Source: a virus (Duplodnaviria > Heunggongvirae > Uroviricota > Caudoviricetes). From it: a stretch of DNA of 22,815 bases. The DNA lies in the IMG/VR virus record IMGVR_UViG_2529293042_000013. One strand, 5' to 3'. Made by a program: the position numbers. Shown in pieces: positions 9,001 through 15,000 of this stretch (within the stretch, counting starts at the first letter, position 1; each line of letters opens with the position of its first letter).

Positions 9001-12000
9001 CTTTTAAGTATGCGCTTGATGGACTCACCAATAAAAAACGCCCGGTGTGCAAGACCGAGCGTTCTGATCAAATACAAATGGAATTTTAACAACATCCAAC
9101 GAGGTAATTATATGCGAAAAACGCAGGAAAATAAACGCGTTAATCACCGAAAAGATGTGCTACGTGACCAGTTTTATCAGGGGGTTAATCCAGCAATAGC
9201 TGTGCCACTGAGAGAAATACTTAACAGGTACAAAACTTCGGAGAAGTCAAAATGAGCATGAATCTTATGGCTAAGGCCATGAATATAAAGGTTGGCAACC
9301 CACTGAGAAAACTGGTTCTGATTAAACTTGCCGATAACGCCAATGATAATGGCGAATGCTGGCCTTCATATCAACATGTCGCTGACCAGTGTGAGGTGAG
9401 CAGATCGACAGTAAAAAGTCACATTAGGGCACTGGAAGAGATGGGGCTTTTGAAAAGGGAATTCAGAAGAAAAGGAGAGCTTAACCAGTCAAACGTTTTT
9501 TATCTGACGCTGGATAATGCACAACAAATCCAACCAGAATCAGGTGGGGCAGGAGCTGCCCGGGGTGGGGCAGGAGCTGCCCTAGGGGGTGGGGCAGGAG
9601 CTGCCCCCAGAACCTATCACTCTTTTGAACCAGTCAATGAACCTAAAAACATTATGTTCGAACATGTCCGAACAGAGTGTGAAAAAACTCCTGACCGTCA
9701 CGAAGAAACCGACAAGGCATTCGAGGAAATATTCTGGTGTGCAGGCATGCGGAAAGCCGGGAAGAAAAACGCAGCTTCAGCATTCAGAACACAGTTCAGG
9801 GAATGGCGTAAAACTACCAGGGGGACGGCAAGCGAGTTTGCCACGATGCTGGCAGAAGACATTGCGTGCAGGCTCGGTAAGCAGTTCGGGTTCGACAGGT
9901 TGTTACCATCGAGCTACCTGAACGGTCAACGCTGGAACGACGAGAAGCCAGAAACTATTCAACCACAATCCAAACCATCATCCGCAATCACCGTATCGAA
10001 AACTGGCTACGTGTTTTTCGACAGGTGAACCATGAAATCCAGAATCAAATCGTTACTTATCGCTGGCTATAACCATGGCTGGCTTAGTTCTGCATTCGTT
10101 GAGTTCTGGTTTAACCGTCTCGATCTGAGGTCAGCGTAATGACTCCAAGTGAACTGAGCGACCTGCTTTGGGCGCAGGTTGACAGGGTGGCTCCGCACCT
10201 GTTGCCAAACGGCAAGAAAGAGGGGCATGAGTGGGTTGCCGGTAACGTCAACGGTGACAAGGGAAACAGCCTTAAGGTCAACATTAGCGGCAAGAAAAAA
10301 TGGGCTGATTTCGCTGAGGGAGACGGCGGTGACATGCTTGATTTGTGGATGGCATGTCGTGGAATTAACCTGCATCAGGCTATGCAGGAAGCGAAAGCAT
10401 TTCTCGGTATCAAGGATGACGATCACCATTTCGATGCCAAACGTGAGAAAAAATTCTCCAGACCTGACCGCAAGAAAATCGCCCGCTACGTTACCAGAAC
10501 AGAATCCCATCTTGAGTACCTGCAATCGCGTGGCATATCGCCAGAAATCGTAAAGCGCTACGAGGTTGTCAGCGGCAAGGTGTGGAATGGAGAGCGGGAA
10601 CTGGATGCTCTGGTGCTTCCGTACAAACGCGATGGTGAGTTGTTGCAGGTCAAGCGAATCAGCACTGAGCGCCCGGACGGGAAGAAAGTCATTATGGCAG
10701 AAGGTGATTGCGAACCTTGTCTGTTCGGATGGCAGGCTCTGGACGCTGGCGTGAGGGCGGTTGTACTTTGCGAAGGCGAAATTGATTGTATGAGCTATGC
10801 GCAATACGGCATCTCGGCGTTATCCGTGCCGTTTGGTGGCGGGAAAGGCGCTAAGCAGCAGTGGATTGAGTTTGAGTATCACAACCTCGACAGGTTTGAG
10901 GAAATATTCATCTCGATGGACGTTGATGATGTTGGTCGTGAAGCCGCAAGGGAAATCGCAAGCCGACTCGGTGAACATCGTTGCCGTCTTGTTACTCTGC
11001 CGTACAAAGACATCAACGAATGCCTGATGAACGGTGTTACCGAGGATGAAATCTGGCAGTACATCGGCACGGCATCCTATTTCGATCCTGAAGAACTCTA
11101 CAGTGCGCGAGAGTTTTACCAGGACACTATCAACGCTTTCTACGGCAAGAAGCAGTATCTGTTTAATCCACCGTGGGAATCTCTGGCAGATAAATTCCAG
11201 TTCCGTGAGGCCGAGTTGACGCTGGTCAATGGTGTGAACGGTCACGGAAAGGCATGCCCACTGAATGAGCCTATTCTTTTAGCTGATGGGACATGGACTA
11301 CTCACGGGGATGTAAAAATTGGCGATCAGGTGGCGTCAGTAGACGGCAATCCGTCAACTGTCACTGGGATATTCCCGCAGGGTGTTAGAGATGTTTACCG
11401 AGTCACATTTGAAGATGGTCGTTATGTTGATTGCGCAGGCGATCACCTATGGGAGGTCACTAGTCGTGGATTCACGAAAGGCGAGAAACGCCGCGTGATT
11501 GACACCTTCGAGCTGAAGCGGTTGAGTGAAACGAAGAGGCACAAAAATGGCGTTAGGATTCCTGAAATAACTGGTGACTTTGGCGACCACTCAGAGCCAT
11601 TAGCATGGGTTATCGGCTCCCTTCTCGGGGATGGTAGTCTTAGCAATGGGAGCGTGAAGTTTTCAAACGTCGAGCCATACATGATCGAGCGTATGAAGGC
11701 TGAACTGCCTGATTACAACTTCTCTGGAGATGGTAAGGACTGGCTGATATCAACGGCGCGTGGTCAGGCAAATCCACTCATGGAGACCCTGCGAGGTTAT
11801 GGACTAATGGGGTGCACAGCAAAAAACAAATTCATCCCTCGTGTGTTTTTTTCCGCAAATAAATCAACGCGTATAGGCATGCTGTGTGGTCTGCTTGAAA
11901 CGGATGGGTATGTCGAGAAGGATGGAACGCTTGTTTTTTCCTCAGCAAGTGAAGAACTGCGCAATGGGGTTGTTCAACTGGTTAACTCACTCGGCGGGTC

Positions 12001-15000
12001 ATGCCGGACGCGAGTTAAAACTGGCGTGACATACACATACAAGGACGATAAGCGGCATGGGATGGATTCATACGAGGCAAGAATCAGACTGACAAGAGAA
12101 ATCAGGGAGGCCATCCGTTCACCACGACTCAATGGCAGATTAACTGCGCATCGATTCGAGGGCTGTGGGGTATTCGTCAGGAATGTTGAAAAAATCGGCA
12201 ATGCAGAATGCTTGTGTATTATGGTCGATCACCCTCGCCACCTGTATGTAACCAGGGGATATGTGGCGACGCATAACACCGAGGTTGTCGGGCATATGGC
12301 ACTTGAGGCAATGCGTCAGGGTGTGAAGACGTGCATCGCGTCACTTGAGCTGAAGCCTGGTATTCTCCTTAAGCGCCTTACCCGTCAGGCGACGTGCTGC
12401 AAGATGCCGCCAGTGCTGGAAATTGACTCTGCATTTAAATTTTATGACGAAAGACTTTGGGTGTTTGGCCTGACCGGAACGGCGAAAGCCGACAGGCTGA
12501 TCGAAATATTCGACTACGCTCGCCGCCGATACGGTATCCAGTTATTCATCATCGACAGCCTGATGAAATGTGGCATAGGCGACGATGACTATAACGGGCA
12601 GAAGGCGTTTGTTGACTCGATTTGCGACTTCAAAAACAAAACAAACTCCCACGTCATTCTCGTTACTCACTCGCGAAAAGGAGACAGCGAAGAAAAACCA
12701 ACCGGGAAAATGGACGTAAAAGGCTCTGGAGCGATAACAGACCTGACAGACAACCTTTTCATCATCTGGCGTAACAAGGCTCGCGAGAGAGCGTTACAGA
12801 GAGTTCAGAGTGGTGAAAAGATGTCAGAGAAGGACGAACAGCTACTGGCATCTCCGGCATCTGTTTTGATGCTTGAAAAACAACGTAACGGCGAAGGTTG
12901 GGAAGGTGGTGTCCCGTTGTTCCTTGACGAGCAATCGCACCAGTTCCTGCAACTTGAATCAGGATCGCCATATAGCTACATCGCCAATATGCCGAAATCG
13001 GAATATGACGAGGCGTGGCGACAGGAAAACGTGACGGAGTATTAAATGAATAAAAAACAATTAGCCATTCTCGAAAAGGCATGGGATGCACAAATATCAT
13101 ACGCTTTGAAAGAACAGGCACTACCAATAATCCAGACCAAATCGAAAATAGCCAGGCAGTTATGCGATGGCGGATTCCTGAACGAAGTTGAGATTACGCG
13201 CCAGATGGTAACGTTCAAAGGGTATGAGATAAATCATCATGGTATAGCAGCGTATTGTTCCCATCTTCCTGATGACGTTGACATTGATGAAATGGAAGGG
13301 GAGATGAAGCAATGACCATCTACATCACTGAGCTTGTAACAGGCCTGCTGGTAATCGCAGGCCTTTTTATTTGGGGGAGAGGGATTGGAGGCTTTAAGAA
13401 ATGAGTACGATAGCTGAGCTTGTCAGGGCTAATTTTCGTGAAGAGTTGGTGCGTTGGTATCGGTATCGTTCATCGTCCAGTTTGCCGCTTGATGAGTTGT
13501 ATGAGCATTCACCTGCCGCACGACGCTATCCGCGTGACCGTGTTCTTCGACGGTTGTTCAAACTCAACAATGAGTTTCAGCGCAACAGAATTATCCGGAG
13601 TCTGGATTTAAAGTGAAGGAGTGAGCATGAGCGACCTATCATTAACCCAGCCAAAGCTAAAAGAATGTCCGTTTTGCGGCGGTAATGCTCGTCTGTGGGT
13701 TGAGGCCGGAATAAATATTGATGTGTGGGGCTATGCAGAATGTGACCTCTGTGAAGCCAGGGGGGCATGGGCACCATCAGTTGCTGCGGCGGCTGAAAAA
13801 TGGAACCGGAGAGCAGGAGATGAAGCAAACCTTTCTGCTTCGCAACGAAGCAATCAGAAATAACGCCATAGACGCCATTCTCTCACTACCCATCGACGAC
13901 AAGTCACCCCACGAAGTCCACGTTAAAGAACCCAAGCGCAGCAAAGCGCAGAATGACCGTATGTGGCCGATGCTGAACGATGTTTCGCGTCAGGTGCTAT
14001 GGCATGGTCAACGGCTGGCGCCGGAAGACTGGAAAGACCTGTTCACTGCCCTGTGGCTTAAGACCAAAAAACTGGAGCAACGAAGTGTGCCTGGTATCGA
14101 CGGTGGCGTTGTCATGCTTGGCGTGCGTACCAGCAAAATGCGGAAGGCCAGCATGACTGAGCTTATCGAAATCATGTTCTGGTTCGGCTCAGAGCGCAAC
14201 GTGCGGTGGAGTGATGACTCCCGGCGAGAGTATGAATGGTCACAACGAAAAGGTAGGGCTGCATGACTATCAAATCAAATACGCCAGCACACGACAAGGA
14301 CTGCTGGCAAACGCCGCTTTGGCTTTTTGATGCACTGGATATTGAGTTTGGATTCTGGCTGGATTCGGCAGCGAGCGACAAAAATGCTCTGTGCGCTCAC
14401 TGGCTAACTGAGGCCGACGACGCGCTCAATTCTGAGTGGGTAAGCCACGGTGCAATCTGGAATAACCCACCGTACAGCAATATCAGGCCGTGGGTGGAAA
14501 AAGCCGCTGAGCAGTGCATACAACAGCGACAGACGGTAGTTATGCTTGTGCCAGAGGATATGTCAGTCGGATGGTTCAGCAAGGCTCTGGAGAGTGTTGA
14601 CGAAGTTCGCATCATCACTGATGGACGGATTAATTTTATCGAACCATCGACAGGGCTGGAGAAGAAGGGAAACAGCAAAGGCTCCATGCTGCTGATTTGG
14701 CGACCGTTCATCAGTCCTCGACGAATGTTTACTACTGTATCCAAAGCGGCATTGATGGCGATCGGGCAGGGCGTCAGGAGGGCGGCATGAGGCGACAGCG
14801 ACGAAGTATCACCGACATCATCTGCGAAAACTGCAAATACCTTCCAACGAAACGCTCCAGAAATAAACGCAAGCCAATCCCAAAAGAATCTGACGTAAAA
14901 ACCTTCAATTACACGGCTCACCTGTGGGATATCCGGTGGCTAAGACATCGTGCGAGGAAAACAAGGTGATTGACGCGATGATTTATTCGGGGCTATATTC

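What the first reader, a model, noticed from the sequence alone, without database searches (positions are those of the whole stretch)
11255..12277. Full-size LAGLIDADG intein interrupting the prophage replicative primase-helicase next to its P-loop
The 968-aa toprim primase / SF4 helicase ORF carries a 341-aa in-frame insertion with canonical intein landmarks: Cys1 (CPLNEPILLADG), two LAGLIDADG motifs (LLGDGS, LLETDGYV), and C-terminal …VDHPRHLYV…THN followed by Thr(+1). It sits right after the Walker A-like GVNGHGKA and before the remaining helicase motifs, so an active helicase would require protein splicing. That would make replication of this Stx2 phage splicing-dependent, and the homing endonuclease could drive horizontal spread of the element.
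Basis: partly seen in the sequence, partly recalled or inferred. Interest (0 to 1): 0.75.

Follow-up and report, generated by a model that had tools for sequence, protein, structure and literature searches.

The report
Known class 3 intein in phage helicase
The replication primase-helicase gene of this Shiga-toxin phage is split inside its ATP-binding loop by a real self-splicing intein that also encodes a homing endonuclease.

Summary
The intein is real, but it is already known and its boundary was misread by one residue. The 968-aa ORF (10139..13045, +) is a T7 gp4-like primase-helicase. Near-identical intein-free alleles (626 aa) read GVNGHGK|TEVVG. The insertion is therefore 342 aa (Ala372..Asn713, nt 11252..12277), not 341 aa starting at Cys373. 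It lies inside Walker A (GxxGxGK|T), not after it.

The AlphaFold model (pLDDT 96.6) matches PI-SceI and the class 3 DnaB mini-inteins. In 140 relatives (the window's intein plus 139 others), Trp67, Cys322, Thr340, His65 and the terminal His-Asn are invariant. Residue 1 is Ala in 102 of them, and 117 of the 139 other relatives sit at GK|…HN|T/S. This is the class 3 (WCT) signature, in which the block-F cysteine, not residue 1, starts splicing.

Both LAGLIDADG aspartates are intact. The same intein sits in different extein backgrounds. It occurs in 79 of 5426 complete E. coli genomes, while 210 carry the uninterrupted site. This pattern is consistent with homing.

The identical gene in phage Φ24B was reported to carry an intein (Smith et al. 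2012). InBase already listed related Shigella prophage "Primase" inteins as lacking an N-terminal nucleophile. Splicing, its class and endonuclease activity have not been tested experimentally. Novelty: already known. Interest: low.

The parts
10139..13045 (+). Precursor ORF of 968 aa (109 kDa): primase-helicase with intein. It is 100% identical to the 'P'/replication protein gene of Stx2a_F403, Stx2a_F451, Φ24B and phiXuzhou21-Stx2a.
10139..11251 (+). N-extein, 371 aa: primase part with Toprim domain (residues 209-296), linker, and the start of the SF4 helicase domain. It ends in the first seven residues of Walker A, GVNGHGK (nt 11231..11251).
   Evidence: Pfam Toprim_2 E=7.6e-12. Alignment to T7 gp4 (5ikn, E=2.6e-23), where GVNGHGKT aligns with the gp4 P-loop GSGMGKS.
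11252..12277 (+). Intein, 342 aa (38.0 kDa), Ala1..Asn342.
   Evidence: A 1026-nt gap in the intein-free alleles lies exactly here. The family alignment places residue 1 at this Ala.
11252..11581 (+). N-terminal part of the HINT splicing domain (intein residues ~1-110). It includes block A (ACPLNEPILL) and block B (His65 and Trp67 at nt 11444..11452).
   Evidence: phmmer alignment to the class 3 inteins 6rix/6bs8. H65 and W67 are invariant in 140/140 sequences. The model has beta strands 7-103.
11582..12151 (+). LAGLIDADG homing-endonuclease domain (intein residues ~111-300). Motif 1 is LLGDGS (nt 11621..11638, Asp127). Motif 2 is LLETDGY (nt 11891..11911, Asp218).
   Evidence: Pfam LAGLIDADG_3 E=1.6e-8, above the cut-off. 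PI-SceI endonuclease matches. The Asp127 column is D in 119/140 and the Asp218 column is D in 139/140.
12152..12277 (+). C-terminal part of the HINT domain. It includes block F with Cys322 (nt 12215..12217, in ECLCIMVD) and block G with Thr340-His341-Asn342 (nt 12269..12277).
   Evidence: Cys322 aligns with catalytic Cys124 of MchDnaB1 (residue roles from PMC7664689). C322 is invariant in 140/140, T340 is present in 139/140, and H341 and N342 are invariant in 140/140.
12278..13045 (+). C-extein, 255 aa plus stop. It starts with Thr+1 (nt 12278..12280), which is both the splice-junction nucleophile and the Walker A Thr. The rest of the SF4/RecA-like helicase domain follows.
   Evidence: (the intein-free allele matches AAA_25 above its cut-off, and DnaB_C at 23.9 bits, below its 27-bit cut-off, across the junction)
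9252..10028 (+). Context: upstream HTH_36 protein, the putative origin-binding replication initiator (annotated in relatives as 'replication protein O' or helix-turn-helix protein).

Best explanation
Nucleotides 11252..12277 encode a 342-aa class 3 intein with an embedded LAGLIDADG homing endonuclease. It is inserted between the Lys and Thr of the Walker A motif (GVNGHGK|T) of a T7 gp4-like primase-helicase of an Stx2a lambdoid phage. The gene is translated as a 109-kDa precursor whose P-loop is split by the intein. The rest of the mechanism is inferred from the class 3 signature and the biochemistry of MP-Be DnaB, Msm DnaBi1 and MchDnaB1. (1) Cys322 (block F:4), activated by His65 and Thr340 with Trp67 packing the site, attacks the Lys371-Ala372 peptide bond. 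This moves the N-extein onto the Cys322 side chain as a branched thioester. (2) The N-extein is passed to the side chain of Thr+1. (3) Asn342 cyclises with help from His341 and releases the 38-kDa intein. (4) An O-to-N acyl shift gives the 71-kDa mature primase-helicase with an intact GVNGHGKT P-loop. At the DNA level, the freed intein's endonuclease is expected to cut intein-free alleles at GGAAAA|ACGGAG. Repair from an intein-containing copy would then spread the element among co-resident lambdoid (pro)phages.
For: What was shown here:
- Intein-free alleles at 98% and 87% DNA identity are collinear except for exactly 1026 nt between the Lys371 codon and the Thr714 codon.
- The extein is homologous to T7 gp4 and Twinkle, with the P-loop aligned across the junction.
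- Pfam LAGLIDADG_3 scores above threshold, with a partial Hint hit.
- The best PDB sequence hits at both termini are the class 3 mycobacterial DnaB inteins 6rix, 6riy and 6bs8. Our Cys322 aligns to their catalytic Cys124/Cys118.
- The AF2 model has pLDDT 96.6 and pTM 0.94. Foldseek's top hits are PI-SceI (query-normalised TM-score 0.68-0.77), then other endonuclease-bearing inteins and the class 3 mini-inteins.
- In 140 full-length sequences (this intein plus 139 relatives), W67, C322, H65, H341 and N342 are invariant and T340 is present in 139. Residue 1 is Ala in 102, and a nucleophile (Cys) in only 3. Of the 139 relatives, 117 follow 'GK' and 138 have Thr or Ser at +1.
- The register of block A matches Ala1 as position 1: A-x-P-L-[DN]-x-x-[IV]-L against the family's AQPLDAKVL.
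- Purifying selection acts on the intein: dN/dS is about 0.17 against the phiKp_30 allele.
- Evidence for mobility: an intein with 0 differences sits in extein backgrounds that differ. The N-extein SNP pattern of the intein-plus allele Stx2_16002 equals that of the intein-minus allele EH2086. Of complete E. coli genomes, 79 carry the intein at >=99% identity and 210 have the uninterrupted site.
- No Rfam family (no group I or II intron) matches the region.

From the literature: the WCT definition and mechanism (PMC2807308, PMC3196547, PMC7664689, PMC5050341). Φ24B carries the identical gene and, from my own knowledge, is an infective, inducible phage. That implies the helicase matures.
Against: - No experiment shows splicing, the branched intermediate, or endonuclease cleavage for this intein. 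Smith et al. 2012 state explicitly that function was undetermined.
- Residue 2 is Cys, unique among the 140 sequences (Gln in 108). A class-1-like attack by Cys373 cannot be excluded by sequence alone.
- Homing is inferred from distribution. Ordinary homologous recombination between lambdoid phages would also move the intein between extein backgrounds.
- Dependence of replication on this helicase is assumed from gene content, not tested.
Confidence: 0.85

Rival explanations
1. This is the first reader's model: a canonical class 1 intein of 341 aa. Cys373 is residue 1 and makes the initial N-S acyl shift, and Ala372 remains in the mature protein (…GHGKA-TEVV…).
For: A Cys is present next to the junction and is conserved in all five intein-plus alleles examined. 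Terminal His-Asn and Thr+1 are compatible with class 1.
Against: - All four intein-free alleles aligned lack the Ala and read GK|T.
- An extra Ala between the Lys and Thr of Walker A would disrupt a motif conserved in T7 gp4.
- The family places a non-nucleophilic residue (Ala in 102/140) at this position, directly after GK.
- The WCT triplet that defines class 3 is invariant or nearly so.
- Position 2 is Gln in 108/140, so it is not a catalytic position.
Confidence: 0.06
2. The splicing domain is active but the homing endonuclease is dead. The intein would be a vertically inherited or recombination-carried passenger with no active homing. Its patchy distribution would come only from the mosaic recombination typical of lambdoid phages.
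For: - Lambdoid phages recombine extensively, and the SNP mosaics in the exteins show such exchange.
- The intein is almost clonal in E. coli (>=99% identity in all 79 genomes), which fits a single recent origin.
- Endonuclease decay is common in the homing cycle (general knowledge).
Against: - Both catalytic Asp residues and the LAGLIDADG helices are intact and match the family consensus.
- The endonuclease domain is modelled with very high confidence.
- dN/dS is about 0.17 over the intein.
- The codons flanking the junction differ synonymously between intein-plus alleles (AAG…ACC) and intein-minus alleles (AAA ACG). This is the pattern expected from co-conversion or target immunity.
Confidence: 0.25
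3. The intein is a non-splicing relic, so the 109-kDa protein is inactive as a helicase. The prophage would then replicate by other means or be defective.
For: Class 3 intein pseudogenes exist, such as Arth_1007 (PMC3196547). The window carries several frameshifting 1-nt indels in other genes.
Against: - All catalytic residues are intact.
- The ORF is uninterrupted and identical in several independently sequenced phages, including Φ24B, which is inducible and infective (my own knowledge).
- It is annotated as an intact CDS in all 25 of the 79 E. coli matches that were listed.
- There is purifying selection.
- The indels elsewhere all lie in homopolymer runs and look like assembly errors.
Confidence: 0.04

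Closest known systems
Intein of the P (primase-helicase) protein of Stx phage Φ24B / vB_EcoP_24B (Smith et al. 2012, BMC Genomics 13:311), and the same gene in phage Min27
   Same: It is the same gene. The Φ24B sequence is 100% identical at nucleotide level over all 2907 nt, and Min27 is 99.7% identical. The paper reports an intein starting at residue 372 with a HintN domain, flanked by TOPRIM and GP4d_helicase domains.
   Different: The paper gives the intein as residues 372-702, whereas it is 372-713 here. It does not assign a splicing class, P-loop junction or endonuclease type, and it says function is undetermined. The Min27 record splits the gene through two 1-nt insertions.
Class 3 DnaB-b (P-loop) inteins: Mycobacterium smegmatis DnaBi1 (PDB 6BS8), M. 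chimaera MchDnaB1 (6RIX/6RIY), and mycobacteriophage Bethlehem DnaB intein
   Same: - They occupy the same insertion point in an SF4/RecA-type replicative helicase, between the Walker A GK and S/T.
- Residue 1 is non-nucleophilic (Ala in Msm/Mch, Pro in MP-Be).
- They share the His-x-Trp of block B, the Cys of block F and the Thr-His-Asn of block G.
- They are the best PDB sequence matches at both intein termini.
- MP-Be DnaB is also 341 aa with a LAGLIDADG endonuclease.
   Different: - The host protein here is a gp4-type primase-helicase fusion of a lambdoid coliphage, not a DnaB.
- Msm and Mch are mini-inteins without an endonuclease.
- Sequence identity to the PDB chains is low outside the blocks. 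The Foldseek alignments show about 12%, rising to 24% for the shortest 6bs8 alignment.
- Our intein has Cys at position 2 and lacks the Cys48 used in the Msm redox switch (alignment; PMC6195587).
Sister intein in the DnaB-type helicase of other Stx2a phages (e.g. Stx2a F578, LC487997)
   Same: It is 50% identical over the whole intein. It starts with Ala after GMGK, has the same ECLCIMV block F and THN|T ending, and has the same LAGLIDADG motifs. It also lies in the replication module of an Stx2a phage.
   Different: The host helicase differs: DnaB N- and C-terminal domains, 797 aa, no Toprim. The intein is 339 aa. The flanking DNA is dissimilar apart from the GG-AAR | ACN-GA core.
PI-SceI (VMA1 intein) and other endonuclease-containing inteins
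   Same: They share the overall two-domain architecture, a HINT domain with an inserted LAGLIDADG endonuclease. They are the best structural matches (query-normalised TM-score 0.68-0.77, Foldseek E down to 5e-18).
   Different: PI-SceI is a class 1 intein (Cys1, Cys+1), is larger (454 aa, with an extra DNA-recognition region), and shares only about 15% identity.

Membership tests
Intein (HINT-domain protein-splicing element) | An in-frame insertion that is absent from otherwise collinear homologues of the host protein | tested here: met
   Intein-free alleles at 98% and 87% DNA identity differ by exactly 1026 nt / 342 aa at K371|T714.
Intein (HINT-domain protein-splicing element) | HINT fold with conserved splicing blocks A, B, F, G, a terminal His-Asn, and a Ser/Thr/Cys at +1 | tested here: met
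   phmmer hits to intein chains at both termini. The AF2 model has pLDDT 96.6 and Foldseek hits to PI-SceI and mini-inteins. H341-N342 and Thr+1 are present. The Pfam Hom_end_hint hit is below its gathering score (26.3 vs 32.1 bits).
Intein (HINT-domain protein-splicing element) | Demonstrated protein splicing (ligated exteins plus free intein) | not testable with these tools
   This needs expression plus SDS-PAGE or MS. The literature says it is untested for this protein.
Class 3 inteins (Tori et al. 2010) | No Cys/Ser/Thr nucleophile at intein position 1 | tested here: met
   Position 1 is Ala372, as defined by the intein-free alleles and by family register (Ala in 102/140).
Class 3 inteins (Tori et al. 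2010) | WCT triplet: Trp at block B:12, Cys at block F:4, Thr at block G:5 | tested here: met
   W67 lies two residues after the block B His65. C322 aligns with Cys124 of MchDnaB1. T340 precedes His-Asn. W67 and C322 are invariant in 140/140 and T340 is present in 139/140. The definition comes from PMC3196547 and PMC5050341.
Class 3 inteins (Tori et al. 2010) | Splicing proceeds through a block-F Cys branched thioester intermediate | not testable with these tools
   This requires mutagenesis (C322A, and C2A at intein position 2) and trapping of the intermediate.
LAGLIDADG homing endonuclease (two-motif, monomeric) | Two LAGLIDADG helices, each ending in a catalytic acidic residue, within an alpha-beta-beta-alpha-beta-beta-alpha pseudo-dimer fold | tested here: met
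   Pfam LAGLIDADG_3 scores 35.1 bits against a cut-off of 22.5. Motifs LLGD127GS and LLETD218GY are present, with D in 119/140 and 139/140 of relatives. There are structural matches to the PI-SceI endonuclease domain, I-DmoI and I-Tsp061I.
LAGLIDADG homing endonuclease (two-motif, monomeric) | Site-specific cleavage of the intein-less allele, and homing | tested here: inconclusive
   The evidence is distributional only. An identical intein sits in different extein backgrounds, there is presence/absence polymorphism (79 vs 210 genomes), and the junction codons differ synonymously. Recombination could mimic this pattern.
T7 gp4-like bifunctional primase-helicase (SF4), the host protein | A Toprim primase domain fused to a RecA-type hexameric helicase domain with Walker A GxxGxGK[ST] | tested here: met
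   The intein-free allele matches T7 gp4 (5ikn, E=2.6e-23) and Twinkle over residues 192-539. The P-loop GHGKT aligns with the gp4 GMGKS. Pfam matches are Toprim_2 and AAA_25 above their cut-offs, and DnaB_C below its cut-off (23.9 vs 27 bits).

The most novel reading that the evidence does not exclude
The class 3 intein may act as a conditional, redox-sensitive post-translational switch on Stx2a phage replication. The catalytic Cys322 lies in a Cys-x-Cys block (C320/C322), and there are further cysteines at position 2 (unique to this intein) and position 61. Oxidants such as H2O2 also induce Stx prophages (my own knowledge). They could reversibly trap the primase-helicase precursor, as shown for the class 3 P-loop intein DnaBi1 of M. 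smegmatis. This would couple phage genome amplification, and hence Shiga toxin gene dosage, to the redox state of the host cell.
Probability: 0.1. Interest if true: 0.7.

Novelty: already known. Interest (0 to 1): 0.2.

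Why it matters
This matters mainly for correct annotation. Current RefSeq records call the protein only 'toprim domain-containing protein', and older records call it 'P' or split it into two ORFs. So the intein, its true boundaries (372-713) and its class are easy to miss.

The practical consequences are:
- The mature helicase is 626 aa with an intact GVNGHGKT P-loop.
- The residue to mutate to block splicing is Cys322 or Asn342, not Cys373.
- About 1.5% of complete E. 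coli genomes (79 of 5426) carry this intein, and another 24 carry the sister intein. A 2016 review-level statement says inteins appear absent from E. coli (PMC5050341).

Replication of Stx phages drives toxin gene copy number. A splicing-dependent helicase is therefore a conceivable point of control or inhibition, but that idea follows directly from what is already published.

Tried and rejected
- **Class 1 (Cys1) reading.** Rejected on the intein-free allele junction and the family register.
- **Group I or II intron, or another RNA element.** An Rfam gathering-threshold scan of 10000..13200 found nothing. The insertion is also an uninterrupted in-frame ORF.
- **The search for homologous proteins with the intein.** It returned only 6 hits, a word-index limitation, and did not return the full-length protein. 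The exhaustive representative search was used instead.
- **NCBIfam.** It gave only sub-threshold hits to intein-containing equivalogs (DnaB PRK07773, RecA PRK09519, and others). These are useful as a hint but not as membership evidence.
- **Literature searches.** 'EP-Min27', 'primase intein' and intein+Stx+prophage+helicase found nothing. Tori & Perler 2011 (PMC3133030) is not held, and the supplement of Tori 2010 is not held. I recall that InBase lists an 'EP-Min27 Primase' intein, but I could not verify this.
- **Ectopic transfer between the two Stx-phage helicases.** I compared the DNA flanking the sister intein in the DnaB-type helicase with our flanks. Only the GGxAAR|ACNGA core is shared, so there is no support beyond the common P-loop coding constraint.

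Full report
**1. The observation**

The window has a 968-aa ORF at 10139..13045 on the + strand. It contains CPLNEPILLADG, LLGDGS, LLETDGYV and …VDHPRHLYV…THN. It is preceded by …GVNGHGKA and followed by TEVVG.

The signal is not chance:
- Pfam LAGLIDADG_3 is above its gathering score, and there is a partial Hom_end_hint match below its threshold.
- phmmer against PDB sequences finds intein chains at both ends of the segment, and PI-SceI in the middle.
- An exhaustive HMMER search finds 16,992 representative proteins at E<=1e-3. The closest full-length relative scores 1.1e-98.

**2. The boundary is off by one codon**

Megablast against phage genomes shows two groups. Nine records cover the whole gene: Stx2a_F403, Stx2a_F451 (GenBank and RefSeq records), Φ24B/vB_EcoP_24B and phiXuzhou21-Stx2a at 100% identity, Min27 (two records) at 99.7%, and Stx2_16002 and Klebsiella phage phiKp_30 at 98-99%. 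Thirty records match in two pieces covering 65% of the query, spanning about 1870-1894 nt of each record (1881 nt in most). These include Stx2_EH2086/EH2085, Sf101, mEp043 and APC_JM3.2 at about 98%, and Salmonella epsilon34, ES18, g341c and others at about 87%.

Protein and DNA alignment shows that the intein-free alleles read …GVNGHGK-TEVVGHMALEAM… (GGA AAA ACG GAG). The insertion is therefore 1026 nt / 342 aa: Ala372..Asn713, nt 11252..12277. The insertion lies inside Walker A (GxxGxGK|T), not after it.

The intein-free protein aligns with T7 gp4 (5ikn, E=2.6e-23) and with Twinkle. GHGKT lies on the gp4 P-loop GMGKS. Pfam finds Toprim_2 and AAA_25 above their cut-offs, and DnaB_C below its cut-off (23.9 vs 27 bits), across the healed junction. 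Calculated masses are 109.2 kDa for the precursor, 38.0 kDa for the intein and 71.1 kDa for the mature protein.

**3. What kind of intein it is**

The best PDB sequence matches at both termini are the class 3 mycobacterial DnaB P-loop inteins: MchDnaB1 (6rix/6riy) and Msm DnaBi1 (6bs8). Our …AECLCIMVDHPRHLYVTRGYVATHN aligns to …VPVRCVEVDNPAHLYLAGRGMVPTHN. This places our Cys322 on their catalytic Cys124/Cys118. Residue roles are taken from PMC7664689.

I extracted 139 full-length related inteins from the top hits of the representative search and aligned them with this intein, giving 140 sequences:
- His65, Trp67, Cys322, His341 and Asn342 are invariant in 140/140. Thr340 is present in 139/140.
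- Residue 1 is Ala in 102, Glu in 14 and Pro in 8. It is Cys in only 3.
- Of the 139 relatives, 117 sit immediately after 'GK', and +1 is Thr in 126 and Ser in 12.
- The block A register matches with Ala as position 1 (AQPLDAKVL in the family, ACPLNEPIL here).

These are the published defining features of class 3 inteins. There is no nucleophile at position 1, and the WCT triplet sits at B:12, F:4 and G:5 (PMC3196547; PMC5050341; PMC2807308). That position is Gln in 108/140, and Cys occurs only in this intein.

An AlphaFold2 model built with 63 relatives has mean pLDDT 96.6 and pTM 0.94. Foldseek against the PDB gives PI-SceI first, with E down to 5e-18 and a query-normalised TM-score of 0.68-0.77. 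Next come TliVMA, PI-PfuI and PI-PkoII, then the class 3 DnaB mini-inteins and free-standing LAGLIDADG enzymes.

The endonuclease looks intact. Asp127 and Asp218 end the two LAGLIDADG helices, and those columns are D in 119 and 139 of 140 sequences. Rfam finds no intron or other RNA family in the region.

**4. Mechanism**

The mechanism is inferred from the signature and from the biochemistry of MP-Be DnaB, Msm DnaBi1 and MchDnaB1.
- The precursor's P-loop is split by 342 residues, so it should be inactive as an ATPase. This has been shown for a P-loop RadA intein and was assumed for DnaBi1 (PMC6195587).
- Cys322 attacks the Lys371-Ala372 bond and forms a branched thioester.
- The N-extein moves to Thr+1.
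- Asn342 cyclises.
- An acyl shift gives GVNGHGKT.

What is shown here is the sequence and structural signature. Not shown are splicing itself, the intermediate, and endonuclease activity.

Indirect support for activity:
- The gene is an uninterrupted CDS, identical in several independently sequenced phages, including Φ24B, which is inducible (my own knowledge).
- It is annotated as an intact CDS in all 25 of the 79 E. coli matches that were listed.
- dN/dS across the intein against the phiKp_30 allele is about 0.17 (0.0115/0.0696).

**5. Mobility**

In complete E. coli genomes, 79 of 5426 carry the intein, all at >=99% identity and full length. A 200-nt probe across the healed junction finds 289 genomes with the gene, 210 of them with an uninterrupted junction.

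The intein is identical (0 differences in 1026 nt) in the window, in Min27 and in Stx2_16002, yet their exteins differ. The 16 N-extein SNPs of intein-plus Stx2_16002, relative to the window, are the same 16 found in intein-minus Stx2_EH2086. So the element sits in at least two or three extein backgrounds that also exist without it.

All five intein-plus alleles have ACC for Thr+1. Four of them have AAG for Lys-1, and phiKp_30 keeps AAA. All four intein-free alleles have AAA ACG.

This pattern is expected from homing with short co-conversion or target-site immunity. Lambdoid mosaic recombination is a valid alternative, so the homing step is only inferred.

**6. Comparison with what is known**

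The element is not new. Smith et al. [quoted passage not shown] They said its function was undetermined. That gene is 100% identical to this window's gene.

Tori et al. [quoted passage not shown] So the family and its atypical first residue were registered by 2009. I also recall an InBase 'EP-Min27 Primase' entry, but I could not verify it.

The K|T P-loop site is described as the 'classic' P-loop intein insertion (PMC5050341).

What this analysis adds is modest:
- exact boundaries (372-713);
- an explicit class 3 assignment with a 140-sequence test;
- a high-confidence model;
- allele frequencies in E. coli;
- a sister intein in the DnaB-type helicase of other Stx2a phages. It is 50% identical and 339 aa, with junctions GMGK|AMALSE…VTHN|TELA. 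It occurs in 49 'Stx2a-converting' phage records and 24 E. coli genomes.

**7. Verdict**

The intein starts at Ala1 and is class 3, so it is not a canonical Cys1 intein, and the product is GHGKT, not GHGKAT.

Novelty: already known. Interest: low (0.2).

The most novel reading not excluded is redox-conditional splicing that gates Stx-phage replication, by analogy with Msm DnaBi1. The only support here is the cysteine content: C2, C61, C320 and C322, with C61 and C320 common in the family.

Noticed in passing
L005:3001-4017 (Stx2a F578, LC487997) and other Stx2a phage records: A sister class 3 LAGLIDADG intein occupies the P-loop of a different replicative helicase in other Stx2a phages. It is 50% identical and 339 aa, with junctions GMGK|AMALSE…VTHN|TELA. 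The host is a DnaB-type helicase of 797 aa without a Toprim domain. It occurs in 49 'Stx2a-converting' phage records and 24 of 5426 complete E. coli genomes. Two non-orthologous Stx-phage helicases therefore carry related inteins at the equivalent site.
   Followed up: partly
window 669, 692, 6183, 6412, 6575, 7540, 8058, 15415: The window is 99.95% identical to Stx2a_F451 over 1..20406 but has eight 1-nt indels, all in A/T homopolymer runs. They appear to truncate the serine/threonine kinase gene, and the cI-like repressor (ORF 7639..8052 is only 137 aa against about 235 aa in F451). The last indel (15415) falls within the anti-repressor (Ant) gene by F451 coordinates. They are most likely assembly errors rather than real frameshifts.
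   Followed up: partly
window ~20532..21837: An IS3-family insertion sequence lies downstream of stx2AB, near the 5' end of the SASA-family esterase gene. OrfA is 108 aa (HTH_Tnp_1) at 20582..20908, and OrfB is 296 aa (rve) at 20905..21795. It is absent from Stx2a_F451. F451 instead has a 2.4-kb three-ORF transposase element about 130 nt upstream that the window lacks.
   Followed up: partly
L004 (phage Min27, EU311208) gene positions 2497 and 2509: Two single-base insertions relative to the window split the Min27 primase-helicase into the annotated 'P' and 'ORF31 putative DNA primase'. These are probably sequencing errors. They explain why Smith et al. reported only 87% amino-acid identity to Min27.
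   Followed up: partly
L007:782-3688 (Klebsiella phage phiKp_30, LC768498): An intein-plus allele occurs in a Lederbergvirus from a Klebsiella host. Thirteen of its 26 intein nucleotide differences are packed into the first 42 nt of the intein, and it keeps AAA for Lys-1. This suggests a recombination or co-conversion breakpoint just inside the N-terminal junction, or a second intein lineage.
   Followed up: no
window 11255..11257 (Cys at intein position 2): Position 2 of the intein is Cys in all five alleles of this intein. It is Gln in 108 of 140 sequences in the family alignment and Cys in no other. Its role, if any, is unexplained; a redox role or an alternative nucleophile are possibilities.
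   Followed up: partly
window 18382..18633 and 18724..19683: Three tRNA genes lie directly upstream of the Stx2 A subunit: Met-type CAT (annotated ileZ in F451), Arg-TCG and Arg-TCT. The A subunit is 319 aa and matches the Pfam RIP family. This confirms that the window comes from an Stx2a-converting lambdoid phage.
   Followed up: yes
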